64,000 bases of DNA from Hydrurus foetidus (lineage: Eukaryota): assembly GCA_900617105.1 (NCBI GenBank), contig UYFQ01000327.1, forward strand, positions 1-64,000, in the 5' to 3' direction. Shown here piece by piece: positions 14,862 through 52,605 of this stretch. The notes below the pieces were generated by a model. That model was not told the origin of the DNA. It worked only from the letters and a program-made list of their open reading frames with translations, and searched no databases. Both the position numbers and the translations under genes were made by a program. The stretch's first letter is position 1; every line of letters starts with the position of its first letter.

Positions 14862-15560
14862 CAAGGGGGTATAGAAAGGAGGTTACCCCCTCTTGGTTCT
14901 ATTCCGCTCTCAGAGGTAGGTCCCTTTAGGGGGAGACATCCCCGTGCGACCTCACGGCTTTTCACCCGCGCTCTCCGTTGCATCCTAGATGCTCAGTTCG
15001 AAGAACAGAGAATGGAATAAATGCGGCGTTATCTTACAATGGGTGCGCCTGCGCGCCTGGGCTCGCCCGTCCGCCCTCCCCTGCTGTTCTTCCTTCCGAA
15101 CCAAGCTTGGGTGTTGGGGGCGGACCTTGGGTCAGAGTTTCCTTCACCAACTGGCACGCAAGTGGTCAGATAACATTGCACAACATCTTATACTATCACC
15201 ATAAAAACGTAGGATTGGTTGGCCACGGGGTAATAAAATGCGTCACACTAGATAGACTAAGGTTAATCAAAAGATTGTGAGAGAACACTCTCAGTGAAGC
15301 GCGTCGACTACGAGCGGGCACACTATATTAATAATTCGAAAAAGTGCTGAATAATTATTCGAAAACGTAGAATGACACTACAACGACTAGGGGGACTTAT
15401 TCCCGCTGCATGTCGGTCCAACGCTATCATCGTCATCGTCCCCCGTCCCGTCCCTCGGTATCTCCCCATCCGCAGCCGCCCCTTTAGGGACCGGCACCGG
15501 TCAGCGGCCTTAGCTCCTAGCCGCTCCAGAGAACCCATACTACCGTCCGGTATCCTTTAA
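14862..15560. mobile_element. Unclassified 699-bp non-coding insertion with 6-bp direct repeat TTACGA
   Basis: Absent from the sister LTR at 20570-20852. TTACGA occurs at 14856-14861 and 15561-15566. The insert starts with hairpin CAAGGGGGTA...TACCCCCTCTTG. Confidence 0.85.
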
Positions 15561-15835
15561 TTACGAGGTGTGGTACGCACGTACGCACCGAGTCCGGTTA
15601 ACGGCGCTACTCTTTGTATGCATGAAAATGAATGAGTAGTTTAGCGAGCGACACTTTAGATTGTAGGTGACCGAATAAGTGTCGTGGCTAATGAACAGGG
15701 ACATTAGTCACAAGTTTAAATAACAAGTACTGATCGAGAGCAGTCGATTTTTTACGAGTCTTGGAACGTGATACACCACCGGATAGTTCTAGAAACACCG
15801 GATTTCCAACATATTTAAACTGACAAGGAAGCATC

Positions 15836-28614: not shown

Positions 28615-29565
28615 AGTATGGCGTGCCAAAGGTGTTTTTATTATTTTCACCGTTTTCCCGAGGATCCCGTACTTTTCTTTCTCCGCTCCTACGGTACCCT
28701 CGCATCTCCAAACTCCAAACCATCATACACCTCTCAACTCATAGCACTGTAGAAAACGCATATAGAAGATTCAAAAGCTGTCCATGAAAGAGCACTTTTC
28801 TCAGGATAAGAATGCTTTTAATTACAATTTGTTATGCTCTACTGCGATATCTTCAAGACATTCTATACAGTGTGTAATGTAATGACCACAATATTCTATT
28901 CTATCAGCAGAGCAATAATCCGCGAGATATTTGCAAAAGTGATGGTGATATTGAGGTGATGTTTTTGAACGCTTGTAACTATAACAGCAAATGCCACATA
29001 ATACATGAGACGCTAAGAATTTGCAAGCATCATGACAGATATACTTTGCTACTTCGCTCAGAATTTCGTGTGAATTGAGCGGCTCAGTTGCAAAATAGAG
29101 AGGAACTATTTTTTTAGACAAAAATGGCATCAAAAATTTTCGGTGGAATGGAACATTTGGCGTCAGCCTTTGACGTATTAAAGCTCAGTAGCTAGATTTT
29201 GGTGCATTTTCAAGCAAGAATCAAGCGTTAGAAGAGTCTTACCTGCTGTCGCAGATACTCTGTATGGTTTGGAGATGGTGAAATCTCCTGTTTTCGTGAG
29301 TCTTCGGGATGCTTGATTTCTCTCGTGATGAAAATTTCCAAAGGTAGGAGTAGCGGCTATAGCTGCTATGATAGGCATCTTGAGGAACTGCTGATTCACT
29401 TTTCCAACTGGAGTGAAGCTGCATTTTCTACAGTGCTATGAGTTGAGAGGTGTATGATGGTTTGGAGTTTGGAGATGCGAGGGTACCGTAGGAGCGGAGA
29501 AAGAAAAGTACGGGATCCTCGGGAAAACGGTGAAAATAATAAAAACACCTTTGGCACGCCATACT
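28615..29565. mobile_element. Non-coding element with inverted repeats of about 145 bp (foldback or MULE-like, unclassified)
   Basis: 28615-28760 is the near-perfect reverse complement of 29420-29565 (AGTATGGCGTGCCAAAGG... / ...CCTTTGGCACGCCATACT). Confidence 0.85.
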
Positions 29566-29666: not shown

Positions 29667-32600
29667 TGTTGATGCCGACGGATCAACTGGGAAGAATCGA
29701 AGGTCCTGATTCAGTTTGGTTGAATTAGATTATGTCAAAGGAGTGAAGATGATCATGTGATTCAGTAGAAAGCACCTGCAGGTTGGTGAGTTGTCACTTG
29801 TCCGTAATCATGCAATGTTTCAGTGGTTGTGTGATTGCATTCAACATCATGTGATTGTTATCTACTGTGTCCTGAATGCAGTGATTCTCGAGTTTGTCTC
29901 GGTAGAGAAAAGCGGATTGTGTTTCCACGTTCCGCAGGTGGCGCGCACACGTCTTGTTATATCGACAGTATCAACACACTCTCTCAATTTGGCTTTTGTT
30001 TACCTTACTTGACTAGACAGCGGCACGTTGCGCAGAGGATTTCTGGAAAGATTTGGCTGGCGATTGCGGTGTGTGGACAAGAAGTGGCATGAGTACCTGG
30101 TGTGTCTTAGCCGGTGGGGGTTTGGTGAAGAAATCAGCTAGATTATGTTCGCCTTTACGCCACTGTATATGAAAATGTCCTTGGTTTACGCGGTCTCTGA
30201 TCTAATGGTATCGCATATCGATTAATTTTGTCCTTTTTGCTTTGACTGAGTTTATCGCCATACCCACTGCGCACTGGTTGTCGCAGAGTATTAACGTGGG
30301 TGATTGCGTGTAGCCCATGTTTGAGAGAACCTGCCGCAGATATTCCCCGTCTTGGGCCAGAAGGAAAAGCGCCGCATACTCTGCTTCTGCGGCACTAGCA
30401 ACCACTGATGGTATAATGGTGCTGACTGCATGGATAGCACCATTGATGTGATGAGGCGAGCCAGCATTTCCTAGATAGCAGATGCCCCCAGCGACAGAGC
30501 GTGCTTTTGGCCGAGATAGGTAGGAGGCGTCTGCTTGAATGAATAAGGTCATGTCGCACGCGTGGTACACTAATTCGTTGTTAGGGTATCGCGCGCAGTA
30601 GCGTAAAAGGCGGTCGGCAATCTCCTCAACTTGCTCTGTGGGGGCCGATTGCAGCGATGCGATCAGATTCACTGTGGGCAGGAGTGTGACATCGACGCCT
30701 CGGGCGTAGAATAGCCGAAATCGTCTACAACTAGCGCGAAGGTTGTTCCGTTTGATGAGTGTCTGAATAAGCATGGAGTGTCGGTCTGATGGTACTGATG
30801 TTTGCGTAAGTGCTCAATGAGTTTTTGTTGTGCTAAGTACCCTGCCTGCGGCAGTCCGTACATCCCTTTATTAACTTCGAACAGAATGGAATTGTTGGAC
30901 ATGAATCGCTCTAATTTGTGGGCCGCCAGAGTGGCAGGGGGAATAAGTTTACGTTGGATACGAATGTATTCTGGCCGGGATAGTGGCGTATTCAAGTAAT
31001 AGTCCTTGATGTCTAGTGTCATCCAATTGCTGTCATCGCTGACAACTGATTGCAAAAGGATTTTGACGACAGGCATTGCGGCGGTGTTTGCAGAGGTCTC
31101 TCCCGGGTAATTGATCCTGTCACCGCCGATGGTGCCTCGTACTCTGTATGTTCGGTTACCTGTTGCATCTTCCTTCTCTTTAATCTGCGGATTGTAGTAG
31201 CTGGTGTCTTTTCGACGATGCATTGGTTGCTCATGAATGTGTAGGGGTTTCATTGTGTTTGATGAAAATAGTCGGTTAAACTCTTCAATCTCAGCTTGCC
31301 GCCACTGTAGTTCCTGGTCACCACGAATGGCCTTTGCGTATGTTAAGGGTGACCCGTCTGGCGCCAAGTTCAGGGATGATACAGCTGATGCTGATCCCGC
31401 GGTTGTTCTACTGCGTGTCACCGGTGGCTCAGGCTGCGTTTTTAACAGCGTAGTTTTTGAAACGGGGAAAGGTATATTTGGTGCAGTGGCCTCTGTGGGT
31501 AGCATGACGTTTTCTGTCAGGTTAACGCAATGGTCGGACTGCGCCGCACTGTTTATGGTCTGAGGTGCAACTGTAACTGACGATTTCTCGATTAACAGCG
31601 GAAGCGGCGGTGCTTGTTCTTGATTGGGGTCTGCTGGTAACACCCTCTGTTCTGCGTCCGTGTACTGTAGTTGTGACGACGGTTGTTGCAATTCAGTCGT
31701 CGGAATGACGTCGGGTAGGGTAATGGGTTCGGAAGGTGCTATGGCGATTTCAGTTGCTGTCGGAGTATCTGCAAGTTGCAGAGTCCTTGGGCAGAAAGAT
31801 TTCACAAACGCCTTCAAGTCCTTGAGCATTGTATGAGGAACATCATGCAGTTGGCGTGAGTGCGCTGTTGCAGGGTGTGATGTTGCTAATGTGGATATTG
31901 CTGCTGCCAAGTCTTTGATTGCAGCTATGGCAACGTCATGGGGTCCAATATTAGGTAGTACCACTTTGTCGAAGATCCAACCCAGTGTGTCAGTTACTCT
32001 GATGGATTGTGTGTCGATTGACCACACACTAAAGCAGCGATAATGCTGTTGCGCTGGTCCTAGGTAGAAGCCGAGCACACCATGTGGTGCCCAAGTACCG
32101 CGGACAGTTGGCTTGTCGTGGATAATGACTTTGGTGCCTGCGGGCGCTATGGGATGCGCTCGAAAATCGAACTGTCGCCCGTGTAAGCCCTCATAAGCAG
32201 AGATGTTGGGATTAGGACTGTAGGGTATAAGGTGATTCAAGCAAAGTTCTGCTTGCGGGAGCAGTTTGTCCCACAGAATCATTGGAAAGTCGGTGGATAC
32301 TGTGCATAAGGTCGCGATGAAGTGGTTCTTGAATGTTCTGATGGCGCGCTCTGCTTTCAATGATCTGTGTTGTCCTGGAGGGCAATATTGTATTGAGACA
32401 TTGTTTTTTGCTGCATATTCTCTACTGCTAAGGACGTCTCGTTGTCAAGCCTTTGAAACAGTGGCTTATGCCCAACCTTGTCCCAGAATGCCAGAGTGTT
32501 TTTGTATGCGTTGACGTAGTTTGACTGGTGACGCGATGGTATAGCTTCGCAATGGATGTATCCGTCTAGTACTGATACGAACACGTATTCGGCACCGGAT

Positions 32601-34755
32601 AGGGCCTTGACTGGAAACCGACCCGTTAAGTCTGAATGTGCTGTTGGTGAGAGAGACAGTGTCTTTGTGAAGACTGTTCTGCGGGGTGATGGCGGGTGGT
32701 TTGCTTCGTCTGAATCTTCAGGATGATCGTCCAATGATGTCGAGTCGAGGCCCTGGCGGTATTGATCTAAATGTCCCCTAGCTGTCGCTGCCGTGAGAGA
32801 GAGGTATGACCTAACCATAGTGGCAGTCAACCGTGGATAGGAAGAGAGGTACCCTTACCGCACTGCGCGAAGTAGAGTGGAAAGCGAGGGACTGCCGAGT
32901 GTTGTGTGTATAAATGTTGCGAAGGAGGCATCGGTATCGCTACGGAGGATTGCTGATGCTGCCGTGGCTGCTGTCGATTCCACAAGTGGTCTGACTGCAG
33001 TACAGTGAGACCATCTCTGGTAACATGCATTTCCTCGCTTGTAAAAGTGGCAATACATCCGTTGTTGCACAGTTCTGAAATGCTGACAAGTGATGTATCG
33101 AGAGAGGCATCAGGAAATATATGTGCCGTAAGCGGTGCTGGTAGATGGGGCAACCACAACTCTCCAACAGATGAGGAGCTCATAGTGTCACCGTTAGGAA
33201 GTGCCGAACGGATGTTGCTGTTGTGTCGTACGTTGCTTAATGTGACTGCATCCGTTTCTCGCAGTAGTATATGCGAAGATCCCGTGTCAGCACACGGTAG
33301 TTGGGTGACTAGGTGGGCCGATGAAGATAAGACTTTTGGACTAGAACAAGGTTGTGTTAAGTTACCGTCCAAAATCTTAACTTGATGGCCGATTTGTCAG
33401 AGTCCGTGTATGGATCCATTTGCAACATCGGTATGGGTTGTTGCTGCCTTCATAGCTGCAGTGTACTCTGGTAGGGCAGCCATCTATCGACACTTGGAGC
33501 TGCTGTGGGAGTTGTACCCATGTTTGAAACAGTAGGTGCGGTTGGATGCGTCAGTCGATGAGTTTGCTTTCGCTTTGTGGGGAAAGGCTGCCGAAATCCG
33601 TTTATCTATATATGCTGCGAAAGCCGCCGACTCTAGGTATCCCGTTGGCATATTTGTAACGGCAGACACCGACGCTGCGTATCCGAGGTCTACGGGGGCT
33701 GGTGTAAAATTGGGCGCCTGCTCGGTGATATGATTGACAAGTCCAGTAAACGTCTGCTGCACAATGTGTGGATGCGCAGTCAGGTATGATGTGATGGCTG
33801 TTGTGTAGGACATGTGGGAACCGATAGCCGCCCGTAAGTACCGGCACTTGTCGACCTCGGATAGTCCCTGATTGGCCGATAGGAACTGGCTGTGCCGCCA
33901 ATTCGGAAAAAGTCCTACTTCCTATTTTCGTGTTGAGATCTGTGCGGAAAGAGTCGAAGTCAGAGGCTAAGAAGGTCCCATATCGTTCCCGTAACTGGTC
34001 CAGTAGTTGTTGGCACGATATGGATACGAGGCCGAAGAATAGATCGCTTAGCTCGTTTTCATCAGCGTCGGGGAGGCTACTGATGATAGCGTTCTTCAGT
34101 ACCCGCAACGCTTCGGATATAGCGGAATTTCTCCTGAAGGTTATTTCGTACTGTTTTAAGTTTGCTGCTGGTGCGCCCAGTTCGGGTGGCGGCGTGAGAA
34201 CGACAATCGGCCGATTCATGATTATAATTTCTCCTTCGTTGGCTGGATTGTTCATAGCGATGCCAGGAAGCATTGCCCATTGCGCGTCAGAAACGCAAAA
34301 ACCTAGCAAGCCGTTGACTCCCAGGTGTTCCTGACAGCGACTTCCGAATGCTGTATTTGTTGCTCGAAGGAAAGCTTGCATGTTTTGCCTGCTGTTCGCC
34401 TTGATGTCCGGGAGAATCACTTCAGTCATTGTAATTTAATTCAACTGTTGATGCCGACGGATCAACTGGGAAGAATCGAAGGTCCTGATTCAGTTTGGTT
34501 GAATTAGATTATGTCAAAGGAGTGAAGATGATCATGTGATTCAGTAGAAAGCACCTGCAGGTTGGTGAGTTGTCACTTGTCCGTAATCATGCAATGTTTC
34601 AGTGGTTGTGTGATTGCATTCAACATCATGTGATTGTTATCTACTGTGTCCTGAATGCAGTGATTCTCGAGTTTGTCTCGGTAGAGAAAAGCGGATTGTG
34701 TTTCCACGTTCCGCAGGTGGCGCGCACACGTCTTGTTATATCGACAGTATCAACA
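29667..34755 (-). mobile_element. Copia-2: Ty1/Copia element with identical LTRs but defective coding region
   Basis: 310-bp LTRs at 29667-29976 and 34446-34755, identical by eye. TSD TGAAC at 29662-29666 and 34756-34760. PPT (minus strand) GAGAGAGTG. Confidence 0.96.
30202..34429 (-). pseudogene. Copia-2 gag-pol, fragmented
   Basis: Knuckle YCFKHGYNSHSSSKC. Protease CADTGSS. Integrase SDLTGRFP, RLDNE, AERAIRTFKNHF. RT LDIKDYYL, KGMYGLPQAG, VVDDF followed by an internal deletion. RNase H ADASYL, SAAEAEY, CDN. Confidence 0.93.
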
Positions 34756-34760
34756 TGAAC

Positions 34761-34988
34761 ACCCAAGACCCCAAGACTCCGTCATTCCTACTGCCCTCAC
34801 ATCCGACTCTACTACCCCATCAGTGCGCGTCATGACGAAGACTGACCACTCAAGACACCAAGACTCCATTATTCCTGCTACCCCTCTCCATCATTTTCTT
34901 CTACCCCATCAAGTGCGACTCAAAAAAAACCCTGACAGAGACATAAAGAGCGAAGAACGTGGACCCAGACCCAAGACCCAAGACCCAA
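34761..34988 (+). repeat. Short degenerate repeats (CCCAAGAC units and a duplicated CCAAGACTCC...ATTCCT motif)
   Basis: ACCCAAGACCCCAAGACTCC at 34761, ACCAAGACTCC at 34857 and GACCCAAGACCCAAGACCCAA near 34968. Confidence 0.55.
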
Positions 34989-35297
34989 TTCCGGAATGAG
35001 ATATTATCAGCAGTCAGAAAATTATTTTAAGTGCATTATTTTGCATGTTACATAAAGTCTTTTTAGCATTGTTTAACTCTATGCTCATTCGGATCAGTCA
35101 GACCTTATGATACTAAAATTACCCTGTGTGTAATAAATTATCTAACGTCACCATTAAAGTCAACCCCACTATTACCCTACACTACAAAATCATGTTATGA
35201 TACACCATTTGTGAAACTCCAAGTAAACGGAGCATTTTTGAATCCTAATGCGTTTTCATTCGCGTACACCAACCCGACAACTCACGCCATAGGGGTG

Positions 35298-36183
35298 TGT
35301 CGGAATAACTAATGAGTTAAGTAACCGTATAAGTTATTATGTATGCTGTGTGGTAGTCGCTACTCCATCGGTCCAGGTTCCTTTAACCCAGGAACATCAA
35401 AATGATGAAAGTGCACCATGTTTGACTGTGCGGGACAGATCGAATTTGTCGACTGTCTCCATGAACGATGTAAGCGATGTTGCATCGTTAATTACCTTAA
35501 TACTCACACCAGCAGAGCTTTCGCCTTGAGCCCGGGATTGCAACTAGCGCACGTGTTGAACCTGCAGAAGGAGCGCGTACCCAGGAAGGATATAGTTGTC
35601 CATTCAGTGGAAACTGAATCTTAGTGTACGACATAATTAACGAGTTGCTTTCGTTGCAAACAGTTGCAACATGAAAGGCAGAGGCAGAGGCCGAGATAAC
35701 AATACCGCAGGCGGTCGAGCAAACCCTGCCAACGGTGGCAGAGGAAATGCTGGCCGCGGTGCGAAGCCTCCACCAAGAAGAGGAACGGTAGCTGCGATCG
35801 GCGCATTCCTGGAACTTGGAAGAGAGATGAACCATGGCAGCGGAAGCGCATGGATGAGAAAGTTTCGCGAGTATACTCGCGCAAACTATATGTCCGATAT
35901 CTGCGAGATATTCGGCAATGAGGGCATACCGGGTAATTACACGCAATATGTCGCTCCAGTTGACATAGCAGCAGATGCTGGCTTTATGGCGGCAACAAAG
36001 TGGAAGAGAACACTAGAGCTCTACGACAAGCTCATCCTAACTTTGAGAGAAAATAGAAAGCAGGTCTTCGGGTTAATGCTAGGACAAATAAGCGAACAGT
36101 CGACATCGACAATCCGAGAAACGGAATCGGGCGCTACCGCCATGTTAGAGGAGGACCCACTACTATTGCTATTAGCGAAAACA
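35298..36183 (+). mobile_element. Copia-5 fragment: one 336-bp LTR (35298-35633) plus truncated gag start
   Basis: TGTCG...CGACA is preceded by AGGGGTG, the same PPT as Copia-1. The ORF from 35671 has a gag-like QVFGLMLGQISEQS segment resembling Copia-1 KIYSVLWMRMSPAS. It is cut at 36184. Confidence 0.8.
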
Positions 36184-37680
36184 CTTGAGAAGCAAGGATT
36201 TTCTTGTCGAAGGGCAGTCCTTTTTTCAGGGTGAAATCTGCTACTACTAACTTCCACGCAGATTTTTTATTTTTGATGTTAGAATACATACCGTCAGAGT
36301 GCTCACATCAAGCCACTTCACGGAGCCCGCAACTTAAATCTGCACGCTGGACTACATATCTAGAAATATGCTGAATAGACGACCGTTACTGCCGATAAAA
36401 AAGTTGCATCGCAGAAACCTTCAGTTATAGCACTTCACGAATCAGGGCAATCATTTCCATCACAACTTTGTGTGATTTCTCGTGCCCCAACTTTTTTGCC
36501 GAGCAGCTTTTTCGTGGAAAAACTGAAGGCTCGAGAAACTACAGATTTTCTTAAAAACTAAGGTTTTTGGTGTAATTTTCGTTTCCCGAACGCACCCTTT
36601 GGGTTCCTTATGATAAATGCCTGGGATTGCCATATAAATTTACGAATAAACCCTTATATTAGAGGAGTAATAGCCAAAAGGCGGAAGCTATCGGACCGCC
36701 AAAAAAGTTGACCGTAATCCGACACAAAGTCGGAAACGTCGGTTGTGTCAGAACCTAAGCTGTGAGCTGTGAGATGTGAGCTGTGAGGAATTGGCCCTAT
36801 TCCAACTCGTTGGAGTTGGGAGTTGAGGGTTTTGGAGTTGGTAAAAATAGCCCGTATAATTTTGATGGGCTTTTTTACCCACTCCATTTTCGTTTTCAGA
36901 CTCCAAAATTTAAATCGTGGAGTTGGACCCGCACCTTTTGAGTTGGGGTGAAACACCCAGTAAAATAATGTAAAACTCAAATTCTTGTGGTGTACCGGAA
37001 AATCCGGTGTTCACATGACTGACAAATTTTACCAACTCCAAATCCCCAACTCCTCAACGACGGGTGCGTTCGGTAAACCGTGAAACCTTCATTTTTCGAG
37101 GTATTTCTGAAATTTTCCACGAAGGCCTTCACATTTTGGGAAATCATGTTCGGTAACAAACCTACATCATCACATCTGGAGGAAAGTAGTGATTCCAGGA
37201 AGAACGAGTATTTGTTCCTTTTGCGGCGATGAGGATTCATTTGTCGTAGAGAAACTTCTACCGAACGGAATGACGTGAGATTTCAAACTCTCTTGAGGTA
37301 AGCAGCGCGATTTCCCTACTCTTGACGGCTTCTGATGCCACAACTTTTCATGGGGAAACTAGTTGAAACAACTCTCATCGAATGTCACTTGTTAAAGCAG
37401 GACTTTTAGCATCTTGGACTGACGTCAACAAGAAGGTCTTGATTGATGTCTTCGCCGCTTTCTCGGGAGGGTGTTCAAGCAGTGAGCAACGATTGATCGA
37501 TCCGATATCCCCACCAGGATCCCAGATCCCGGATCTCCGATCGATCATCCCAGAAGTTTGGCACAAATGAAATGTTCAATCGTACGAGAACAGTGTACGC
37601 TCTGGCGGGGACGCTGGAACATCTTCATACTGTACGTGTAAGGAGTGAGCGTAAAGTATGGGATGAAGTTGAGACTGTTC
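36184..37680 (+). repeat. Copy A of a composite repeated segment containing Harbinger-type TIRs
   Basis: 36184-37097 matches 48419-49352, 37484-37508 matches 50898-50923, and 37514-37679 matches about 52266-52444. Confidence 0.9.
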
Positions 37681-38492
37681 TGTTGGTAACCGTGGCACAA
37701 TATGTTGTACACATATAACAATCCATACCGTTTTGGCTTCGGCCAATTACAGCCATCAGTATTGCGTGACTGACCGCAGTCATAGCTTACCGCATTCACC
37801 ACCATAATTTAATCACAACAATCGTCGAATAGTCCAATTCGTTTGACACGTTTGATATGCAGTACGCGATCAACAGTTGTGATTAGATCTCTTCGCTTGA
37901 CAATGGAGAGCACGACGCCAATTAATTTACATAGTCATATACGACAAATTTTCTTAGTATGGCGAAGATCGATAATCGAGGCGTACGGACAGTCCTGTAA
38001 TATCTACAACCAACACAGACTGCTGGGATATTGTCAGACTAACCACTAACGTAGTTACGTCTGTTGTATAGTAGTAGATATAGTAGTATAGATACACGTT
38101 AGGTAGTACTGTATACATATATGTATATGCGTAACTGTACGTACACCATAGAACGTACACTGTACATACCAGATATGGCCGTTGGCGATACATCCCATAT
38201 TCGAAAGTATCCTTTCAGTGCCAACAACTGCTATGACCTTTCTTGCAACGCCACACATGATTTCACCTCTACCTTGCTCGCCACCTCGTTTGCCAGGTAG
38301 CCAATCATATGTTAGTTGCATATGTAGGTTGCCAACTGCAGATCTTCTGTATCTTGTAAACCTAGGCAGATCTTAATCGATATAGCTTGCACGCCGACAC
38401 AGCGTTCTAGCCGAATCTTGGAGTTCTACTGCAGTAGCCTCCACACCAGTTGGACTATACGTCATCAGGTGATATCCTTAGCCAGATCCACA

Positions 38493-38501
38493 TGGTAGCG
38501 A
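38493..38501 (+). promoter_or_regulatory. Primer-binding site of Copia-3 (TGGTAGCGA, initiator-Met-like)
   Basis: TGG, complementary to tRNA CCA, follows the LTR-terminal CA directly. The tRNA identity is inferred. Confidence 0.7.
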
Positions 38502-41500
38502 TTGATTGTTGAGAAATCACAAATCAAGTCTGATCATTTTTAGCAACCAAAATTGACGTCATCAGACAAGCAAAGCAATGCTAGCCACTCAGAGCAGAAG
38601 TTCTAGTGTGCCAAAATCAGCGGCAAAACAACCCGCCGCTGCTCGAACGGCTACTCGGTCAAGAGGCCAAACGAGATTTATCTCTTCAGCTTCAGCACCA
38701 TCGAAACCGGCTTTCCTCCCAGATAATGCGGATATTATTCCTCGCGGATATTATTCCACTGGCGCCCATCGTTCAACAAACTGAGTTAGGCATTCCACTT
38801 GAGGATATTCTAAAAGCGCCTGCTCCGCCGGATCTTATTCAGAAAGATCTACTGACAATTCCTGGAGCGATTCTGGATAATGGGAAGAGGAGCGATTCAG
38901 CGGATCTAACCACTCACCATTCCCCGGAGCCTGCCACATCTCTGGCCACTGGGCAATCTTCTAGTATGTATTCTAACGAAGATATGAGAGAAATCATTCG
39001 GTCAATGATGACCGAATATACGATCTGATCAGAAAGTGTGATGAGTAAGACGCCGGTCGAAACGGCGCAACATAATACGGGGAATCAAATCATCCTAGGC
39101 GTAAGAGATGATGTCAGCGACCTCCAATTAATAATCGAAATCACGACAATAGCCTTATCGATGGGTCACCGTCAAGGAGTATACGATCACTACGACGCAT
39201 CAATCATCGATGGCAGTCAAGATCAACTTGTCAAACGACGGGGCTACCAATAGGAAGAAGCTCAAAGAGCTCGAGCTTCTCCTGAATGAGTGCGAGCTCT
39301 TTACTCTCGCTGAGGAAAAGAGGATCCCTGTTCCATCCAATGAATATAACCCAAGTGGTTATACTCATGAATCTGCCAAGTTCGACGGCAACAAAATAAT
39401 CATCACAAAGAAAGGTATACAGGATCGCTTCCATACCCTCCTGCTTGTTCCCTTTGAGCTTCCTGGTCAGTAGGTATAGCTTGTCTGACTCAGTCATACA
39501 CGTGAGGTTAACGTTGTTCACGAGCGTGACAGCTTCTAGGAACGCCGCGATGTTTTCTTTGATCGACTTGCTTGAAGGTGGCTTGAGATCGTCGAGTAGC
39601 CCCCTTGATAGTCCGCTCTCATTACTCCTCTCGCCTTGAGCAAAGCGTTTGATTGCTTTGTACCACTCGATCCCGTTCTTGACGTTGATGTGTTGCGTGA
39701 TGAGATAGTGTAGGTCCTTGTTTGTGACAAGGTTCATCAGAGCGAATAGTCTTTCTGTGGCTTGCGCTCGGATGGTTTACCTCCTGGAGCCTTGGATGTC
39801 TTGCGTGAGTACTTACACCGCTCACCGAATGTGCAGGAGCCTTTGAGGAAATTGCGACAGACATTTCCCTCAGTGATTGCATTCATCTTCAATGCTTTGA
39901 TGGTTGGAGGGTCAGCTCGAATGAGCTGATTGACTAGCTCGCGATATCCTTTACTGTTACGACAAGTCTAAGACAAAGTATCAACCACCGCAGCACAAGA
40001 AGGTATCATTCGAGCACCGATTCAAGACCGGGTCCCCACGTGGAAAACCTACGGACAAGAATCCTGAAGGACACTCCATCAAGCAGCTCGTTGTCCCCAA
40101 GTCGCCTACAAGCCAGGGAAGCAAAGACGGCTGGCAAGATCCAACATACTTTGACATTGCAAAGTCTCAAAACAAGACGGAGCACTTAAACGTATTCAAG
40201 ACAAACGCAATCACGCCATACGTACCACCAAAACGTACAAGCCCAAGACGCGTCGTCATATCCGAGGAGACATCAAGGTGGATCCAAAGTCAAGAAGCCA
40301 TGCTCATGTCCATCGATCAACGAATCAAGACTTTCAGAGATGTAAACGACTTTGTACCCACCATCAAAGATCTCCTCGTATACGTCCACAAGTATACCAA
40401 GTCGGATCTTGGCAGATCCACCAGTGAGGTCGAAGCCACCATATTCACCGGGTTCTGTTGGCAGTCAAGTTGCAACCCACTACACAACATGTGTAAAGAA
40501 AACCTCCAAGTGAAAGATGCGGACCCTCATGTTATGGAACTGCTGTATGAAAACAGCGAGTACTTCAACGCCCGTATGGATTTCCCCACCGCCCAAGAAT
40601 TGACCTATAGAGAGTTTAATCTGTTTAGACCCACATGATCAGACTATCACCCACGGGGAGAACCGGGCCACTACATGTCACGAGCAAATGAAATAGACGA
40701 GTTCTATGTTATCGCAAATAGGATAAACATCATGGGAGTGTCATCGGATACAAGAAATGTTCTAATGCTAGGTCTAGTGTATGACTTTATGTCATATGTA
40801 GCAGAGCATCTCAACGTAGACATTATCAACCGCAAGACAACCATGGCTGGACGAGTCATCATGCGCCACAAGATCAAGAGGCTCAGCAAAGAACCCGAGT
40901 ATGTTCAGCTACATATGCTCACACGGATATTTCATGCCATTGTGGATTCACTCCGCCCACCGGTCATAGAACGCGAAGCACCTCCCCCGCAGGAAGTACG
41001 TACGTTCTCAGTCATGAGCACCTCGGAAGGCAATCAAGGCGACCGCTTCGGCATCGATACCGAAGACGACATGGACTATGAGGAAGCTGTAGGCACATTT
41101 GATCAGCCTGACTATTGGGAGGATACAAGTGACGCAACCTTCAGTCCCAACGCAGCCCTCCGAAACAAGGATATGCAGCGCGAAGACACCACAACAAAGA
41201 GCGTGACCTAAGGAACCTGTACAACTTCCCTGACACGCCGGAGATATTCACGCCTCAGAGAAGGAAGCCGAGGAAGTCAGAGGTCAAAGCGGTACAAACA
41301 CGTCAGGAATATGACGCAGACACTTTCCCTATCCAACCTCCACTAACCACTTGCACCTACACCACCTCGTCGGTACACACCAAGCAAATCATCTGAGCCA
41401 CGCACGCCAGCGACTCCACAGTCAACCCCACAGCGCGTTGCCATAGGCATGTATGGAAATGGTGCACCACGATGGGGTTATGTTGCCAAGCGAACTCAGG

Positions 41501-41924
41501 GCAAGGAGAAAGCAGCTGACCCAGCCCAACCAACATCAAGCAGCATGACTAGCTCATCAAGAAGCGTCATAACGACCCCGCGGTCATCAGCTAGTGTTGG
41601 AAGCGGATCAGCGGCATCACGAAAGAGCACACCTGCTACATCGACTCCTCAGCGCCTCCAAAGCGGATCCTCTGCATCCCACGGTATACACAGCGGATCA
41701 GCGGCACCATCCAGTGTGCACAGCGCATCAGCGGCACCATCGCCGGCTCCCAGCGCCTTAGAGGCATCACCAGGACCCCCCACACCAGCTCTTCAACATC
41801 AGCCACGTTCAGGCAAACCATTTGTAGTCGACCTCACGGCCCCAATGCCACCACGGAGGGCGAAGGCCCCAAGGCTAAACTGAACCTCCTGCACGTTGTA
41901 GGGCCGGCACATCGAGTCCTGGGG

Positions 41925-44900
41925 ATGGCCTCAAAAGAAAATAAAGTTATCATCGACAGTGGAGCTTCCACGTCAGGAACAGGTCTCCAAAATAAGTTTA
42001 AGAACCTACGGCCTGCATCATGCACGGTAAATGCAGCTTTCGGGGAGACCATCACACCATCAGAGATGAGTGACCTGCCACAACCGACCATCGTCATCAA
42101 AGGAATGAAGGACACGACCCTACTGTCACTGTCACAGGCATGTGACGAGATCATGTGCGTTATCTTCACGTCACGCGACTACAGATTCTACGGCCTCAAA
42201 GAGATGCAACCTCACCTGGCACAGATCAGCGAGACCTGCGAGATGAAGTTGTGGGGAGAAGTAGAGGACGGACTCTACATCCAGAAGTCAATCTGACTTT
42301 GTGACGAGGAATGCTTGTTGGTCACAAGCGCTAAAGACACCTCGCTATACGACCACGTCCACCGTGTCCTAGCACATCCTGGTAAAGAAGGGATGGAATG
42401 GCACCAGACACACTCCACTGGAACAGCATACACCCGCAACGATGCGAAGGCACACCGTCCCGTGTATCAAGCATGCGTCCAGGGCACAATGCGACAAGCA
42501 TCCACGGACCACTTAAGAGTCCATAGAGCACCAGCACCCATACCGGGGAGCCAGTTTGGTCTGGATGCATACACCCACGCAGAAAGAGGCGCAGGCCGGT
42601 TCAAATACTGCGACCTCTTCACGGATCTCACCACACGGCGTGTGTATCCGGTGTTCACCCGTGACCGGGGAGCCCAAGAGCTATGCGACCAAGTCAGCCT
42701 GCTCTTCGAGTCTCATCCAGAATGGAGGAACGCATCTACTACATCAGACACAATCGATCGTTTCATCAGGGTCGATGGAGAAAAGTCATATAGATCCAGT
42801 GAGTTCACTAAGTGTCTCGGAGGCTTTGGATACCGCACTAAGCCCACACCACCTCGTCACAAGCATGCCAATGGAGTAGCGGAGCGCACAGTAGGAGTCA
42901 TTGCAGCCAAGTGCAACACGATTATGCTAGCCCCCACACCACCGGTTCCACCCAAGTTCTGGGACATTGCCATGAGCTATGTGTGTGCCACTATGTCGTT
43001 TAATTACAATAGTTTGATAGGTACTTCCCCATACAACATACTAATTAAAAGCATGCTGTCGTCAAACATCTCCATGCTTTCTGGTCCAAGTGCTGGGTCC
43101 ACATACCAACCAAGGACGCAGGCGGTAAAGTCGGTCACCCCCGAGCATACCAAGCCAGGTTCATTGGGTATGACTTGACGACCACACTCAAGCCTACCTA
43201 CAAAGTCATCGAGATATTAGAGAAGGGAAAATATGGCATAGTGAGGATCAGCAAAGATGTCATTTTCGACTAGCCTGAAGAGATAGTGCAACAAGTGGAA
43301 GCCACAACAGCACTAGAGCCACCGCAGCAACATGAGGCAGCTCAAACGCCTGTCCCAGCACCAAAAGCGGCACGCAATCAGACACCTGCAAGTGCACAAG
43401 TCACCATGCATGCACCAAGTGAGGCGACACAACCAAACCAGGTCGACAGCATGCGACGACGAAGTGATGCGAATGCAGTTACAACTCCAGCTAATTCCCA
43501 CCCAGTGGCGCATAGCGGTGCATCCAAGAGGGCCTCACCACCATGCATACCTGATGGTGCACCAATACACCCTGCTAACACTGTCGAATCGATTGGTGCA
43601 AACACACCGATAGTGTCATGGGAAACAGAGGATGCCGTATATTGGTACGCAATCCAGGCCACACAACTGATGACCGTAGTTGAGACGTCTCGCTATGATC
43701 AGATAAAGACACTCCCAGATACCGGCTTTCCCAAATCGTTCTGGAGAGCGATAAAGGACCCACCATGGGCCAAAGCCATCGACACTGAGCTGACGAAGTT
43801 TGAAGTCAACTCTTGCTTCAACCTTGTCCCTTTTACTGGACAGCACCTAGTTCCAATGATGTGGCTGTTCAAGAACGATGGGACGAAGAAGGCTCGACTG
43901 GTCGACAGAGGGGACAAGATGATTCCCAACGTTGACTTCACCCCGAAGCTGTGTATTGTGGAAACGTAGCAGCTTGCTCAATCAAACTAGCCATGGTCAT
44001 AGCGGCAACATACAAGCTCGTCTTGACAGGCGGTGACACTGTAGGTGCATACCTCATTACAAGAGCAAACAAGGACTTCCCAGTGTTCATCACCACACCC
44101 CAAGGTTATTACGTACCACCCGGTTACTGCATCCAAGCAGTAGGACACCAAAATGGATTCCCTCCAGCCGTACAGAACTTCTCCATCGAGTTCGACAAAT
44201 GTTTTAGGGAGTGTGGGTATAAGAACATACCATGGGGCCTCAAACTGTTCTTCAAGTGGACGCACTCGGGCAAACCGATGATTACCATCGCACATAGTGA
44301 TGACTTCAGATGGTTTGGTCCAATCGACCACATCCACGAATGGGATGCAGTTCTCGAAGCATTCAACAAGCATGGATATCAAGTCACTGATGCAACTGAC
44401 AAAGAGTTCGTCGGCATCCGTATAGAAGTAGACGAACACTCCAACTACTACATGGATCAATGCCGTATGATCGACCTCATCATCAAGGAGGCGAACATCA
44501 CAGGTGCAAAGGACGAGCACCTCCCATACCCCACCGACGCACAGCAGCCACCACTGTCCAAGATGGACTGCCCTACCATTGACGCCGATGGGGCCAGACG
44601 TGTCGTCGGACAACTCATGTACGGTATGGTGCACACAATGGTGGGTATTGTGTACGCACTCAACATACTTTCGAGATACGGTAACAACCCTGGTCCCCGA
44701 CACATACTTAACCTCAAGCACCTGTTGAGATATGTCAAGTATGTGAAGAGGGGCCGTCTCATATTCCGGACCCATGACGGACCAACCGACATAGACACCA
44801 TGACCAAGGTACTACAGCTGAAGTTCCAGTGCGATGCAGATCTAGGTGGTAACCAAGATAACCACCACTCCCAGACCTGCTACCTCGGATACCTCGCTGG

Positions 44901-45270
44901 AAGCCTCATCTGCTGGTGTTCCACCGATCAAGGGTCAGTATCCACGTCCACAACGGAATCAGAGATCAAGGCTGTCAACCATGCACTCAAGTCGGAAGTC
45001 ATACCAACTCGCGGTATATTAGAGATGATAGGGTGGAAACAGGATCCAACCATCATCGAAGAGGACAACCAGGCTTGCGTGTACTACTCAAAGACCTCTT
45101 CGATGATGGTTGGATCCTGTTTCCACCCTATCATCTCTAATATACCGCGAGTTGGTATGACTTCCGACTTGAGTGCATGGTTGACAGCCTTGATCAGACG
45201 GCACGTGCACTGTGATCAAAGTGGCCTCTGAAGACAATAACTCGGACATTGGTACCAAGAGGGTAATACT
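41925..45270 (+). pseudogene. Copia-3 pol (PR, IN, RT, RNase H), fragmented
   Basis: IIDSGAS, IRVDGE, ANGVAER, KKARLV, HSDDF, CDADLGG, STTESEIKA, EEDNQA. Confidence 0.92.
44964..45195. repeat. Perfect 101-bp inverted duplication with a 30-bp spacer in Copia-3 RNase H
   Basis: 45095-45195 is the reverse complement of 44964-45064. Confidence 0.93.
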
Positions 45271-45956
45271 CCCCATCTTCACTAAACTAACGTCCCAAAT
45301 TGTTGATAGGACACTCAGAAATAATTTATAAATGTTTTTTGTAAACTTTTGCATATTATTTAATATTTTACAATGCCTTTTGTAATTTTTTAGTATTCTA
45401 CTCACACAGTAGTCTATAATTTTTTGCAATTTGTTATTTGTATTATTAATAGCTCATTAGCAAACATGCACTCATATACATGCATACATCTTCACTACGG
45501 GGAGTGTCAGACTAACCACTAACGTAGTTACGTCTGTTGTATAGTAGCAGATATAGTAGTATAGATACACGTTAGGTAGTACTGTATACATATATGCATA
45601 TGCGTAACCGTACGTACACCATAGAACGTACACTGTACATACCAGATATGGCCGTTGGCGATACATCCCATATTCGAAAGTATCCTTTCAGTGCCAACAA
45701 CTGCTATGACCTTTCTTGCAACACCACACATGATTTCACCTCTACCTTGCTCGCCACCTCGTTTGCCAGGTAGCCAATCATATGTTAGTTGCATATGTAG
45801 GTTGCCAACTGCAGATCTTCTGTATCTTGTAAACCTAAGCAGATCTTAATCGATATAGCTTGCAGTTTCGCCGACACAGCGTTCTACTGCAGTAGCCTCC
45901 ACACCAGTTGGACTATACGTCATCAGGTGATATCCTTTAGCCAGATCAACAGATAT

Positions 45957-48418: not shown

Positions 48419-49352
48419 CTTGAGAAGCAAGGATTTTCTTGTCGAAGGGAAGTCCTGTTTTCAGGGTGAAATCTGCTACTACTAACTTCCACGCAGATTT
48501 TTTATTTTTGATGTTAGAATACATACCGTCAGAGTGCTCACATCAAGCCACTTCACGGAGCCCGCAACTTAAATCTGCACGCTGGACGACATATCTAGAA
48601 ATATGCTGAATAGACGACCGTTACTGCCGATAAAAAAGTTGCATCACAGAAACCTTCAGATATAGCACTTCACGAATCAGGGCAATCATTTCCATCACAA
48701 CTTTGTGTGATTTCTCGTGCCCCAACTTTTTTGCCGAACAGATTTTTCGTGGAAAAACTGAAGGCTCGAGAAACTACAGATTTTCTTAAAAACTAAGGTT
48801 TTTGGTGTAATTTTCGTTTCCCGAACGCACCCTTTGGGTTCCTTATGATAAATGCCTGGGATTGCCATATAAATTTACGAATAAACCCTTATATTAGAGG
48901 AGTAATAGCCAAAAGGCGGAAGCTATCGGACCGCCAAAAAAGTTGACCGTAATCCGACACAAAGTCGGAAACGCCGGTTGTGTCAGAACCTAAGCTGTGA
49001 GCTGTGAGCTGTGAGCTGTGAGCTGTGAGCTGTGAGCTGTGAGGAATTGGCCCTATTCCAACTCGTTGGAGTTGGGAGTTGAGGGTTTTGGAGTTGGTAA
49101 AAATAGCCCGTATAATTTTGATGGGCTTTTTACCCACTCCATTTTCGTTTTCAGACTCCAAAATCTAAATCGTGGAGTTGGACCCGCACCTTTTGAGTTG
49201 GGGTGAAACACCCAGTAAAATAATGTAAAACTCAAATTCTTGTGGTGTACCGGAAAATCCGGTGTTCACGTGACTGACAAATTTTACCAACTCCAAATCC
49301 CCAACTCCTCAACGACGGGTGCGTTCGGTAAACCGTGAAACCTTCATTTTTC
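48419..49352 (+). repeat. Copy B of the composite repeated segment
   Basis: Near-identical to 36184-37097. The GCTGTGA heptamer has 7 units here and 4 in copy A. Confidence 0.93.
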
Positions 49353-50895
49353 AAAATTTCTGTCTCAGTGGATGTAACTATCAAAAGTGAACCTTTGAAA
49401 AATCTTATACTTATGAGGTTGAGCTATTAGTGTGCATTAATTTGAGCCATATTTAACTGATATGAGCCCACACAGCTATAGCTATATTATTTCGCGAGAT
49501 CTTACCTTCTTGCATATTTAAACCACCTTCGTCCTGATCCTCAATTTCATCATCATCAGCGTTTGGATTGTTAACTAATTCAACATTACAGAATTCATCT
49601 TCATACAATAGATTAAGGCGTACAAAGTTGTGTATAAGGAAACATGATTGTATGATATTGCACTGAAATTTATAATTATAGGAGCTCATTTTTTTTGAAA
49701 CCGGGAATCTATTTTTCTTGATGCCGTACAGTCTTTCTACACAATTGCGTAATGACGAATGTCGTAGATTAAATAATTCTTTATAATTTGCGGGACCTAT
49801 TCCATTGACCGCATACTCCATCAAATGGTAACGAACACCACGATACGGGTCAACATGTACTTACTAAGCCACCGTCTCCTAAGAAGTATTTGTTAGCTAG
49901 CAAAAGTAAACATTTCGTTCATGCATCGTCGTATACTCTGCTATCATCAGAACCCTCCCATCCAATCAAGACGTAGGCAAACGTAAGATCAAAATTGGCC
50001 ACGCCTAAACGTTTTGAGAATGAAATTTCTTCCTATTGTAATATGGGCCTTGCAGATCCACAGGTATTACTGCGGGTATATGTGTTCCGTCAATTGCACC
50101 AATACAGTTGTCGAAGTAAGGCGTAAAATTCGCATTATTCGATATCTTTGCCGGAATAGGATCACCGGCTAGAGCAGGTTTGAAGATGCGATCCTTGATA
50201 TTGTCCAGGCAAGCACTCATCTCATGAACTATGTCAGATATAGTTGCACCAGAGTGTTGCCATCGTTCGGCAGTTTCTCTGTTTGTGTACCCATGGAGAA
50301 CGTGCAGCAGAATAAGAAGATTCTGTCCGCTGCAAATATACATAGAATCTCTAAGTCCCCCATCAATCAGATTTGCCTTAAGCAAATCGAAAGTTTCTTT
50401 GCCCATTCGAGCAACTTCTCGAAATCTGTTGACATTCTCAGTAGCCATAATCTCCCTATAATATAGGTCACCTGTGAGAACCGTATTGCGCTGCGGGCGT
50501 GGTTGTCGCCGCGCTCGGTACATGCCAACTAGGACCACTGCTATCAATCGCATGACATTCATGTTGCCTTCCGCATCCATCGTATAAGTATGCTTTATGA
50601 TTATGCGGACTTGTTGAGTTATCCTTCTAACGGTATTTTCATGTCCATGTGAACAGATTCATGTTTTTTTCATGATTCCGTTCGGTAAACCGGAAATCCT
50701 GGAAACTCGGAACTTTCATTTCTAGCAATGTTTCTTTTCGATCCTGGATGAAGCTTTTTCAAATATGAAGGTTTCTCAGTGAAATTTACCGAACGCACTC
50801 GATATCCAAAACGAAGGAGTTGAATGAAACTAAGGCCTAAAATTTTAGTCTTTTTTACAGCTCCCACCCAACTCCAACGAGTTGGAATAGGGTCA
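49048..50895. mobile_element. PIF/Harbinger-type element (outer TIRs, 3-bp TSD AAT) enclosing a second TIR pair at 49317-50800
   Basis: AAT|TGGCCCTATTCCAACTCGTTGGAGTTGGG ... CCCAACTCCAACGAGTTGGAATAGGGTCA|AAT. Inner pair GGGTGCGTTCGGTAAA ... TTTACCGAACGCACTC. Confidence 0.85.
49453..50580 (-). pseudogene. PIF/Harbinger (DDE_Tnp_4, HARBI1-like) transposase, disrupted
   Basis: CIGAIDGTHIP, NRKKFHSQNV*, GWEGS, YRGVRYHL, ELFNLRHSSLRNCVERLYG. A stop and frameshifts lie between 50005 and 49824. Confidence 0.93.
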
Positions 50896-50922: not shown

Positions 50923-52260
50923 TTATAACCGACCGAAGGTCGGTATATTTAGAACCGTACATGTACGTACAACTGTTTTGATGGATCTCTACAGGCGGGG
51001 CTCCAAATTGACCAGGTGAATTCATATTCGAAAGGTGGCTTCATTACAGTCACTTTCTACAAAATTTCGACGTTGTTGGATATTCTAGGTAGGTCTAGCA
51101 ACTTCTTTGCACCCCGAATGTCGTGCATCTCTGAAACTAGAAAAATTGAAGACAGCGTTTTCCTGTTTGCTGTGTTGCAGAAAATTCACTTTCACGTCGA
51201 ATGCCGCCCAGGAAGCGTCGCCAAAATGACGTTGCAGAGCCAAAAAAAGAGCAGGAATCATTGATTACTTTTTCATCAGGTATGAATGCAAAATTTCATC
51301 GTTGCAACCTCTCCAACTCCTTACTCTATGGTAGGAAAATGACCATTTTACGATGCTTCCACTCAAAAATCACCCTGTAAATACTCGAAAAGAGCTGATA
51401 GCGTTCTTCAAAATAGAATCTGACCTATCTGATCATTTCAAAATGTATTTATTACTGTAGGCGCAAATTCTTGATGCTAGCCGAGCTGTGATACTCTCTC
51501 CAGCTTCGGAGAGCTTAGGATTTCGAGCGCGTCAGTTGAGAAAATCCTCGCCAAATCTGATATTCAGTTCATTTCAGCTCGAATTTCACTTCTGAAAATT
51601 GAACTAATCTTAGAATGCACCTGATCATCCAGGATCAGAAATGTGGCGCAATCGGAGCTGCACTTAAAAAGTCAGTTTCAGAGAGCTGGTGGTTTCGAGC
51701 GCATCAGGTGAGAAAATCCTCGCCAAATCTGATATTCAGTTCATTTCAGCTCGAATTTCACTTCTGAAAATTGATCTAATCTTAGAATGCACCTGATCAT
51801 CCAGGATCAGAAATGTGGCGCGATCGTAGCATATCTCAAAACTCAAGTCTCGGAGAGCTTCGTTAGATAGGACACGTCGATATGTCGCATGTTACGAAAT
51901 CCAGCGCCATTTCCAAAATTCAAATTAAGTGCACATGTTAAACTTTCTTTGGATTTTTTAAAGTTCAAACAGAGTTCCTAATTTTCCAAACCCAGACAAT
52001 TCTAAAGTTTAACAAAACACACGCCATAAGGAGTATTCTGGGAAATCTGTTGCGGTGATTTCATATCTATCCCGAACATGATCATGATTACTCCGATTAT
52101 ATTTACCATTTCTCAAAGCAAAGAGGGGTGCTCATGCGATCACAGTTCAAATGAAACGAGATTGTTACAAGATTCGTCATCAAAATTACCTAGCAGAAAT
52201 CATACGTCTCACAGCCTACGGCAGTTACGGTCGGTTCGTTATGCAAAGCATACAGTATTA
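50923..52260 (+). mobile_element. Non-autonomous Helentron-like (HINE/DINE-1-type) element
   Basis: Absent from copy A (empty site GATATCCCCACC near 37504). Left hairpin ACCGACC-GAA-GGTCGGT at 50928-50944. Matching subterminal repeat CGGTCGGTT at 52228-52236, then hairpin TATGC-AAA-GCATA at 52240-52252. Internal tandem duplication at about 51521-51830. Confidence 0.75.
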
Positions 52261-52605
52261 TCCCGACCAGGATCCCAGATCCCGGATCTCCGATCTCCGA
52301 TCGATCATCCCAGAAATTTGGGACAAATGAAATGTTCAGTACGAATACGAATCGTACGAGAACAGTGTACGCTCTGGTGGGGACGCTGGGACCCCGTGAG
52401 GAGTGATCGTAAATCGTTAAGTATGGGATGAAGTTCAGACTGTTGATCAGCGCCCTTACTTCTACCTTATCGCTTTCAAAATGGCTTTCGTGGTGATGAA
52501 TTCGCATAGTGATGGAATGACCACAACTGATATTGTGTAGACAAAATTTGGTCTCATGATGTTAGGTTTTCCGTCTCGCCTCAGTGGATAATCCTGAAAT
52601 AAGCC

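What the first reader, a model, noticed from the sequence alone, without database searches (positions are those of the whole stretch)
35485..35643. Copia-5 self-complementary PBS
After the putative LTR end ...GTACGACA (35633) comes TAATTAACGA (35634-35643), which pairs 10/10 with TCGTTAATTA (35485-35494). The gag ATG follows at 35671. This fourth example has the longest loop, 139 nt. The LTR end is inferred from TGTCG/CGACA termini because only one LTR is present.
Basis: partly seen in the sequence, partly recalled or inferred. Interest (0 to 1): 0.7.

Follow-up and report, generated by a model that had tools for sequence, protein, structure and literature searches.

The report
Self-priming site in a Copia retrotransposon
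Where a jumping gene normally binds a host tRNA to start copying itself, this broken Copia-type element and three neighbouring Copia families instead carry 9-10 letters that pair with their own terminal repeat, so they likely start copying with a piece of their own RNA.

Summary
Confirmed. 35634-35643 pairs 10/10 with 35485-35494 across 139 nt, starting at the first base after the LTR's CA; 3 of 5000 shuffled LTRs do as well. The LTR is 35298-35633. A purine tract precedes it. One contig from another run leaves the sequence right after ...TACGACA, and three share the LTR-PBS junction, so no tRNA site hides elsewhere. The gag is a Copia gag, cut at about 36183; this copy is dead. The LTR sits between a 3' remnant and a new 5' end, so it is a shared LTR (tandem or assembly join). 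Three other Copia families here show the same geometry with different letters, each matching only its own LTR; a fourth has a TGG site and no match. Best reading: Tf1-like self-priming (0.7). No transcription start or cleavage was shown, and Tf1's flanking 'pretzel' helices are not evident. A 10-bp hairpin overlaps the primer and varies at one paired position. Self-priming is proven for Tf1 and predicted for plant TAR Copia. This scan already noted it in diatom Copia (31 notes, at least 6 genomes).

The parts
34756..35290 (+). Remnant of the family's 3' internal (non-coding) region, with a short direct repeat; cut on the left by the Copia-3 insertion
   Evidence: In other runs it is about as deep as the gag, and 2 of 32 listed contig pieces bridge it into the LTR with 31 or more letters on each side (X1 record 2, X3 record 10). 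Internal repeat 34756-34827 / 34843-34917. No pol similarity. Only 34900 onward was laid.
35291..35297 (+). Polypurine tract AGGGGTG (predicted plus-strand primer)
   Evidence: Directly before TGTCG; same letters as before the 3' LTR of Copia-2
35298..35633 (+). LTR, 336 nt, TGTCG...CGACA; shared between an upstream 3' end and a downstream 5' end
   Evidence: Roughly threefold deeper than its flanks in X1 (crude measure). 3' end supported by one X8 contig.
35464..35489 (+). 10-bp hairpin (one G-U pair) across the predicted U3/R border, covering the first five primer bases
   Evidence: -11.8 kcal/mol; 39 of 500 shuffles as stable. Of the four listed variants in it, G35467A and C35486T hit one base pair, and 35476 and 35478 lie in the loop (linkage not shown).
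35485..35494 (+). Predicted self-primer TCGTTAATTA (predicted 5' end of the genomic RNA)
   Evidence: 10/10 complement of the PBS; mean pair probability 0.97 if the RNA starts 1 or 6 nt upstream
35495..35633 (+). 139-nt loop (predicted rest of R and U5), with a small hairpin at 35602-35619
   Evidence: Fold. The hairpin core is also seen, by eye, in loose ends of a diverged subfamily (X5, X8).
35634..35643 (+). Primer-binding site TAATTAACGA, at +1 after the LTR; no TGG, no half-tRNA fit
   Evidence: Junction bridged by 3 of 16 listed pieces (X4 record 8, X8 records 14 and 16).
35671..36183 (+). 5' part (171 codons) of a Copia gag, truncated
   Evidence: 16 longer relatives at 58-95% identity, full length about 370 aa with a CCHC knuckle; homologous to the Gag of RVT_2-bearing polyproteins
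36184..37109 (.). Unrelated repeat that cuts off the gag (second copy at 48419-49362, 96% identical)
   Evidence: the rest of the gag is not in the window
15713..15821 (+). Comparator Copia-2: AGTTTAAATA (15713-15722) pairs with PBS TATTTAAACT (15812-15821); loop 89
   Evidence: LTR end fixed by two copies; 5 of 5000 shuffles
34437..34506 (-). Comparator Copia-3: TAATTCAAC pairs with PBS GTTGAATTA; loop 52
   Evidence: Two identical LTRs with target duplication GTTCA; 12 of 5000 shuffles
37810..37885 (+). Comparator Copia-6: TAATCACAAC pairs with PBS GTTGTGATTA; loop 56
   Evidence: Single LTR, ends inferred; 9 of 5000 shuffles
38493..38504 (+). Negative control Copia-4: site begins with TGG (tRNA type), no self-complement
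   Evidence: Longest match 5 nt, reached by 3801 of 5000 shuffles

Best explanation
This is the LTR, primer site and gag start of a dead Copia retrotransposon whose primer site pairs with ten bases of its own LTR, and the family likely primes reverse transcription with the 5' end of its own RNA, as Tf1 does. Shown: the pairing, its exact register at +1 after the LTR, the lack of a tRNA-type site, and the same design with different letters in three other families. Inferred: transcription starts at or just before 35485 (I predict A35484 of a CA). The first 10-11 bases fold onto 35634-35643. The element's RT/RNase H cuts after 35494 and leaves a 3'-OH paired to the first PBS base. RT then copies the 139-nt R-U5 loop into minus-strand strong-stop DNA, and the purine tract primes the plus strand. 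Further inferred: the hairpin at 35464-35489 hides the primer in RNAs that contain U3 (the 3' copy of R, read-through transcripts), so that only correctly started RNA primes.
For: 4 of 5 Copia 5' LTR ends in the window have a 9-10 nt complement at offset 0 (3, 5, 12 and 9 of 5000 shuffles). All four primer sites differ, and each matches only its own LTR; off-diagonal matches are 6 nt or less. The TGG-type Copia-4, the Gypsy element and four 3' LTR flanks reach 0-6 nt. The boundaries of Copia-2 and Copia-3 are fixed independently by paired LTRs. Their RTs are only 22% identical over 189 residues, so the design spans distant lineages. There is no TGG, and no anticodon-loop fit with a closing pair, in any of the four. 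In other copies no listed substitution falls in 35487-35494 or 35634-35643, while neighbouring positions vary; the one listed change in the primer (C35486T) keeps a G-U pair (40 rows shown, 14 hidden). The geometry matches Tf1 (PMC7175516, passages) and the 10-bp criterion used to predict self-primers in plants (PMC6317226, passages).
Against: No transcription start, cleavage or cDNA was observed; only assembled contigs were available. The duplex is weak and AU-rich (-8.3 kcal/mol; -6.5 to -10.6 in the others). It is lost in the model if the RNA starts 30 nt further upstream (0.09), and in Copia-3 it falls to 0.34 with a start one base upstream. Tf1's two flanking helices (PMC10085805, passages) are not above chance: leader stems are reached by 931, 131, 815 and 1000 of 1000 shuffles, U5-end stems by 463, 84, 25 and 216 of 1000. 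C35486T looks compensated in the upstream hairpin, not in the PBS, so half of the primer is under a second constraint. One X1 contig lacks G35642, and one X8 contig departs 13 nt before the LTR end. No outside full-length copy was obtained.
Confidence: 0.7

Rival explanations
1. The element's own RNA primes, but not as in Tf1: the primer would be cut from inside a longer transcript, come from the 3' copy of R, or be supplied by the second packaged RNA.
For: Tf1's pretzel helices are not evident. In Copia-3 and Copia-6 the pairing extends 4 and 3 positions outward past a mismatch or G-U pair, which suggests that the RNA begins upstream of the core. A hairpin overlaps or abuts the primer in Copia-5 and Copia-2 and could mark a cut site.
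Against: With U3 attached, the Copia-5 primer is predicted to fold away from the PBS (0.09 and 0.0). A polyadenylated 3' end could not be extended (inference). I found no precedent in the passages read.
Confidence: 0.12
2. The pairing is a conserved RNA structure with another job (masking the PBS, dimerisation through the palindromic core, control of gag translation), and priming uses an unidentified host RNA such as a tRNA fragment.
For: The primer sites of Copia-5 and Copia-2 hold 6-nt palindromes (TAATTA, TTTAAA). Fungal GalEa Copia have a palindromic non-tRNA site of unknown role at this position (PMC5445492, passages). The host's tRNAs could not be tested: no genome and no tRNA gene in the window.
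Against: Four unrelated primer sites would need four unusual host primers, each copied into the LTR. There is no TGG and no anticodon-arm fit. Copia-6 has no palindrome. The GalEa partner lies downstream and no LTR complement was found there, unlike here.
Confidence: 0.15
3. The match is chance in AT-rich sequence, or the LTR end is misplaced and a tRNA site lies elsewhere.
For: The end of this single LTR was first chosen with the match in view, and about 0.25% of all window positions have such a match (159 of 63570).
Against: The match recurs in 4 of 5 Copia elements, two of them with independently fixed ends. Other runs share the junction, and one contig marks the same end. There is no TGG between 35634 and the ATG.
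Confidence: 0.03

Closest known systems
Tf1/Tf2 (Schizosaccharomyces pombe), Tj1 and the Tf1/sushi group of Ty3/gypsy chromoviruses: demonstrated self-priming (PMC7175516, PMC10085805, PMC4600332, PMC5341516; passages seen)
   Same: No tRNA site; the PBS directly after the LTR's CA is complementary to a 10-11 nt stretch in the LTR at a plausible U3/R border.
   Different: This is a Copia, not a Gypsy chromovirus. The duplex is 9-10 bp rather than 11. The two flanking 'pretzel' helices are not above chance. A hairpin overlaps the primer. The RNA start is not mapped.
Plant TAR lineage of Ty1/copia (Houba, Osr-1): self-priming predicted (PMC6317226; passages seen)
   Same: Copia superfamily; meets the same computational criterion (a complement of 10 bp or more in the 5' LTR, starting 0-5 bp after it).
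   Different: The host appears to be a freshwater microbial eukaryote, not a plant (habitat labels). Relationship to TAR was not tested: no TAR sequence was available from a tool.
Fungal GalEa Copia with Conserved Hairpin Site (PMC5445492; passages seen)
   Same: Copia without a tRNA PBS; short palindromic sequence directly after the LTR.
   Different: In GalEa the complement lies downstream of the site and none was found in the LTR; here it lies upstream, inside the LTR.
Diatom CoDi Copia groups (PMC2806351; passages and first seventh of the main text seen, supplements not available)
   Same: Aquatic microbial-eukaryote Copia, some with gag and pol separated by a stop or frameshift, as the 370-aa Gag here implies. 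The RT and integrase motifs resemble CoDi by my recollection only.
   Different: The paper's text has no passage on priming. Membership was not tested against CoDi sequences, and the host of this window is not identified.

Membership tests
Ty1/Copia LTR retrotransposon | TG...CA LTR with a purine tract before it and a primer site after it | tested here: met
   35298-35633, PPT 35291-35297, PBS 35634
Ty1/Copia LTR retrotransposon | Gag homologous to that of Copia polyproteins | tested here: met
   A Gag profile from 40 long RVT_2-bearing polyproteins hits 16 of 16 Copia-5 Gags, best E 4.7e-12 at Z=1e6. In the reverse search, reversed-sequence controls reach no better than E 0.02. CCHC knuckle.
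Ty1/Copia LTR retrotransposon | pol in the order PR-IN-RT-RH within the same element | not testable with these tools
   This copy lacks pol; the contigs encoding P0001 (up to 8221 nt) could not be fetched
Tf1-type self-primed elements (works like) | PBS directly after the 5' LTR, complementary to a stretch of the LTR, with no tRNA match | tested here: met
   10/10 at offset 0, 3 of 5000 shuffles; no TGG or half-tRNA fit; host tRNAs themselves not available
Tf1-type self-primed elements (works like) | The complement is the very 5' end of the genomic RNA | not testable with these tools
   All 24 listed runs are assembled contigs, which cannot show starts
Tf1-type self-primed elements (works like) | RNase H-dependent cleavage releasing the primer | not testable with these tools
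   Needs biochemistry
Tf1/sushi group (membership) | Three-duplex 'pretzel' with helices on both sides of the PBS | tested here: not met
   Leader and U5-end stems not above shuffles for Copia-5 (931 and 463 of 1000); the test looked for ungapped helices only
Tf1/sushi group (membership) | Ty3/gypsy chromovirus polyprotein | tested here: not met
   The Gag belongs with RVT_2 (Copia) polyproteins
Plant TAR Copia lineage | RT/RH/INT phylogeny within TAR | not tested
   No reference sequences from a tool; this copy has no pol
Diatom CoDi Copia | RT phylogeny within CoDi groups; diatom host | not tested
   Supplements of PMC2806351 not available; relatives carry no organism names
Fungal GalEa CHS | Palindromic site after the LTR pairing with a downstream sequence, no LTR complement | tested here: not met
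   The partner is upstream in the LTR

The most novel reading that the evidence does not exclude
Two deeply split Copia lineages of aquatic microbial eukaryotes replicate without any tRNA, using a minimal 9-10 bp self-primer that needs no Tf1 pretzel. In the Copia-5 family a U3/R hairpin is a switch that locks the primer away in every RNA that does not start at the right base.
Probability: 0.25. Interest if true: 0.68.

Novelty: new variant of a known kind. Interest (0 to 1): 0.47.

Why it matters
In the passages I read, self-priming is demonstrated only for Gypsy-type Tf1 elements and merely predicted for one plant Copia lineage. If Copia RT/RNase H does it too, in lineages whose RTs are 22% identical, tRNA-free priming is either ancient or has arisen repeatedly. 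That bears on the proposal that LTR elements began as self-primers (PMC3601003, passage seen). It also explains why tRNA-based annotation would report 'no PBS' for such elements. The 10-bp rule predicts the transcription start to within a base or two, which makes the idea directly testable. This particular copy is dead and adds one more instance to a pattern the scan has already noted.

Tried and rejected
No host genome is held. Scans for related loci found none: the gag alignment in metagenome and viral contigs, Copia-3 pol and Copia-2 RT in viral contigs, and a polyprotein alignment in viral contigs. A 20-mer LTR pattern gave 2 metagenome and 2 genome hits, all 4 chance. Rfam gave 0 matches at E up to 1 in 34700-36200. 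No tRNA gene lies in the window. The protein atlas did not complete. The deaminase homologue search and cluster look-ups gave no organism names, so the host stays unidentified. The four RNA-labelled runs hold only 6-12% of the words and are contigs; I did not lay them. Summed contig depth was rejected as a precise boundary measure: it is erratic and already high at 35277-35291, which I attribute to subfamilies sharing the PPT region. The depth drop after about 35980 was not read as a deletion derivative, because this copy diverges from most copies there. A window-specific helix between 35538-35544 and the leader was rejected, because most copies differ at 35538-35543. An 8-bp match between 35477-35484 and 35665-35672 was seen by eye and not pursued. 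Half-tRNA priming: one loop fit in Copia-2 without a closing pair, none in the other three. Primary Tf1 papers PMC1369541 and PMC109269 are not held.

Full report
Observation. The window is a nest of eukaryotic transposons: a Gypsy chromovirus at 6040-14651 and five Copia-type elements, among host genes. TCGTTAATTA at 35485-35494 is the exact reverse complement of TAATTAACGA at 35634-35643. The loop is 139 nt and an ATG follows at 35671. Of 5000 dinucleotide shuffles of the LTR, 3 hold such a match.

LTR boundaries. No genome and no second LTR were available, so I used other sequencing runs. Twenty of 24 listed runs hold part of the stretch, mostly freshwater biofilm, sediment, water, air and glacier metagenomes, all as contigs. 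I laid five of them (X1, X3, X4, X5; X4, X8). One X8 contig follows the LTR to ...TACGACA and then runs into unrelated sequence, as a 3' LTR should. Three of 16 listed pieces bridge the LTR-PBS junction with 31 or more letters on each side (425 pieces and 41 loose ends not shown). Another X8 contig departs 13 nt earlier and is unexplained. At the left, TGTCG at 35298 follows AGGGGTG, the same purine tract as before Copia-2's 3' LTR. The sequence upstream is about as deep as the gag, and 2 of 32 listed pieces bridge it into the LTR. So the LTR is 35298-35633, with the family's 3' end on its left and its 5' end on its right. It is the shared LTR of a tandem, or an assembly join, and I cannot tell which.

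Identity. The reading frame from 35671 has 16 longer relatives at 58-95% identity, about 370 aa with a CCHC knuckle and a conserved stop. A Gag profile built from 40 long polyproteins among the 120 best relatives of the Copia-2 RT hits all 16 (best E 4.7e-12 at Z=1e6); the reverse search finds the Gag ends of those polyproteins but not their reversed sequences. The element is therefore a Copia related to Copia-2. Its gag stops at about 36183, where a repeat of about 930 nt begins, and the remainder is not in the window. The host is not identified. A likeness of the pol motifs to diatom CoDi elements is recalled, not tested.

Comparison inside the window. Four of five Copia 5' LTR ends have a complement starting at the first base after the CA: Copia-5 10 nt, Copia-2 10 nt, Copia-3 9 nt and Copia-6 10 nt, reached by 3, 5, 12 and 9 of 5000 shuffles. 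The four sites differ, and each matches only its own LTR (off-diagonal 6 nt or less). Copia-4, whose site begins with TGG, reaches 5 nt, the Gypsy element 4 nt, and four 3' LTR flanks 0-6 nt. Copia-2 and Copia-3 have paired LTRs, Copia-3 with a GTTCA target duplication, so their ends were not chosen for the match; the ends of Copia-6 are inferred. For Copia-2 I took the intact 3' LTR copy, since the 5' copy is interrupted upstream of the site. The RTs of Copia-2 and Copia-3 are 22% identical over 189 residues. None of the four has TGG or a half-tRNA anticodon-arm fit (generic motif test, host tRNAs unavailable).

Folding. Started at the primer, all four RNAs fold the primer onto the PBS with pair probabilities of 0.83-1.0. 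For Copia-5 this holds with starts 1 or 6 nt upstream (0.97), but not 30 nt upstream (0.09). For Copia-3 it drops to 0.34 with a start 1 nt upstream and a longer leader. The Copia-5 loss comes from a 10-bp hairpin at 35464-35489 that covers the first five primer bases. On its own it is not striking (39 of 500 shuffles). However, of the four listed variants in it, two fall in the loop and two change the pair G35467-C35486 to A-T (X8: depth 62 of 194 and 69 of 121; X4: 6014 of 165686 and 22762 of 227574). The pooled tables do not show that the two changes sit on one molecule. Copia-2 has a 10-bp hairpin ending one base before its primer (0 of 500 shuffles); Copia-3 and Copia-6 have none. C35486T leaves a G-U pair with the PBS. 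No other listed substitution touches primer or PBS (40 rows shown, 14 hidden). One X1 contig lacks G35642, which would restore a U-A pair if it were linked to C35486T; that is not shown. Tf1's two flanking helices are not above chance here.

Mechanism. Tf1 pairs the first 11 bases of its RNA with the PBS, and RNase H cuts between bases 11 and 12 (PMC7175516, passages). By analogy I infer a start at or just before 35485, a cut after 35494, and copying of the 139-nt R-U5 loop (0.7). The start, the cut and the hairpin's role as a lock on U3-containing RNA are all inferred. The rivals are another route to a self-derived primer (0.12), a structural role with an unknown host primer (0.15) and chance (0.03).

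What is known. Self-priming is demonstrated for Tf1, proposed for the Tf1/sushi group (passages) and predicted for plant TAR Copia with a 10-bp criterion that this element meets (PMC6317226, passages). Fungal GalEa Copia have a different, downstream hairpin (PMC5445492, passages). Eight literature searches listed no paper on self-priming in algal or protist Copia. The search for self-prim with Thalassiosira gave 0 papers; with diatom and copia it gave 2, whose passages do not describe it. Term searches of the two diatom papers found nothing on priming (PMC2806351; PMC8147415). The library lacks most subscription papers and Repbase. I recall, without being able to check, that Repbase entries for diatom Copia may mention self-priming, and the supplements of PMC2806351 were not available; either could lower the novelty. 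After I had recorded my reading, the scan's index returned 31 notes in at least 6 other genomes with the same idea, mostly diatom Copia. These are unchecked AI notes, and I did not test them.

Verdict. New variant of a known kind; interest 0.47.

Noticed in passing
window 36184-37109 and 48419-49362: The same repeat of about 930 nt (96% identical) truncates two different Copia elements, Copia-5 in gag and Copia-6 in integrase; neither remainder is in the window, which may point to recombination between the copies.
   Followed up: partly
window 38032-45951: Copia-4 is inserted into the gag of Copia-6 with target duplication GATAT. Its LTRs differ by small indels, its site begins TGGTAGCG, close to the GalEa PBS quoted in PMC5445492, and its RNase H region holds a long inverted repeat (about 44950-45195).
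   Followed up: partly
window 6040-14651: The Gypsy chromovirus (LTRs 99% identical, target duplication CTAC) has neither TGG nor an LTR complement after its 5' LTR, but a palindrome GTAGATCTAC at 6247-6256; its priming is unexplained.
   Followed up: partly
window 14830-15560: The 5' LTR of Copia-2 is split by an insertion of about 700 nt upstream of the primer site.
   Followed up: no
window 29667-34755 (minus strand): Copia-3 has 100% identical LTRs but its reading frame is broken several times, which suggests assembly indels or very fast decay.
   Followed up: no
window 35602-35619: A small U5 hairpin whose core appears kept, with another loop, in a diverged subfamily (loose ends in X5 and X8).
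   Followed up: partly
proteins P0001-P0016: The Copia-5 family Gag ends at a conserved stop after about 370 aa, whereas the related Copia-2 lineage has single Gag-Pol frames of 1500-1640 aa; pol expression must differ (frameshift, read-through, or gag-only elements).
   Followed up: no
window 28615-29565: An element with 146-nt terminal inverted repeats (99% identical) lies just left of the Copia-3 insertion site.
   Followed up: no
window 3331-6049 (minus strand): Helitron-like frames with an OTU protease domain and DUF6570.
   Followed up: no
window 37506-37680 and 52259-52444: Two copies (77% identical) of an unclassified repeat; the first ends where Copia-6 begins.
   Followed up: no
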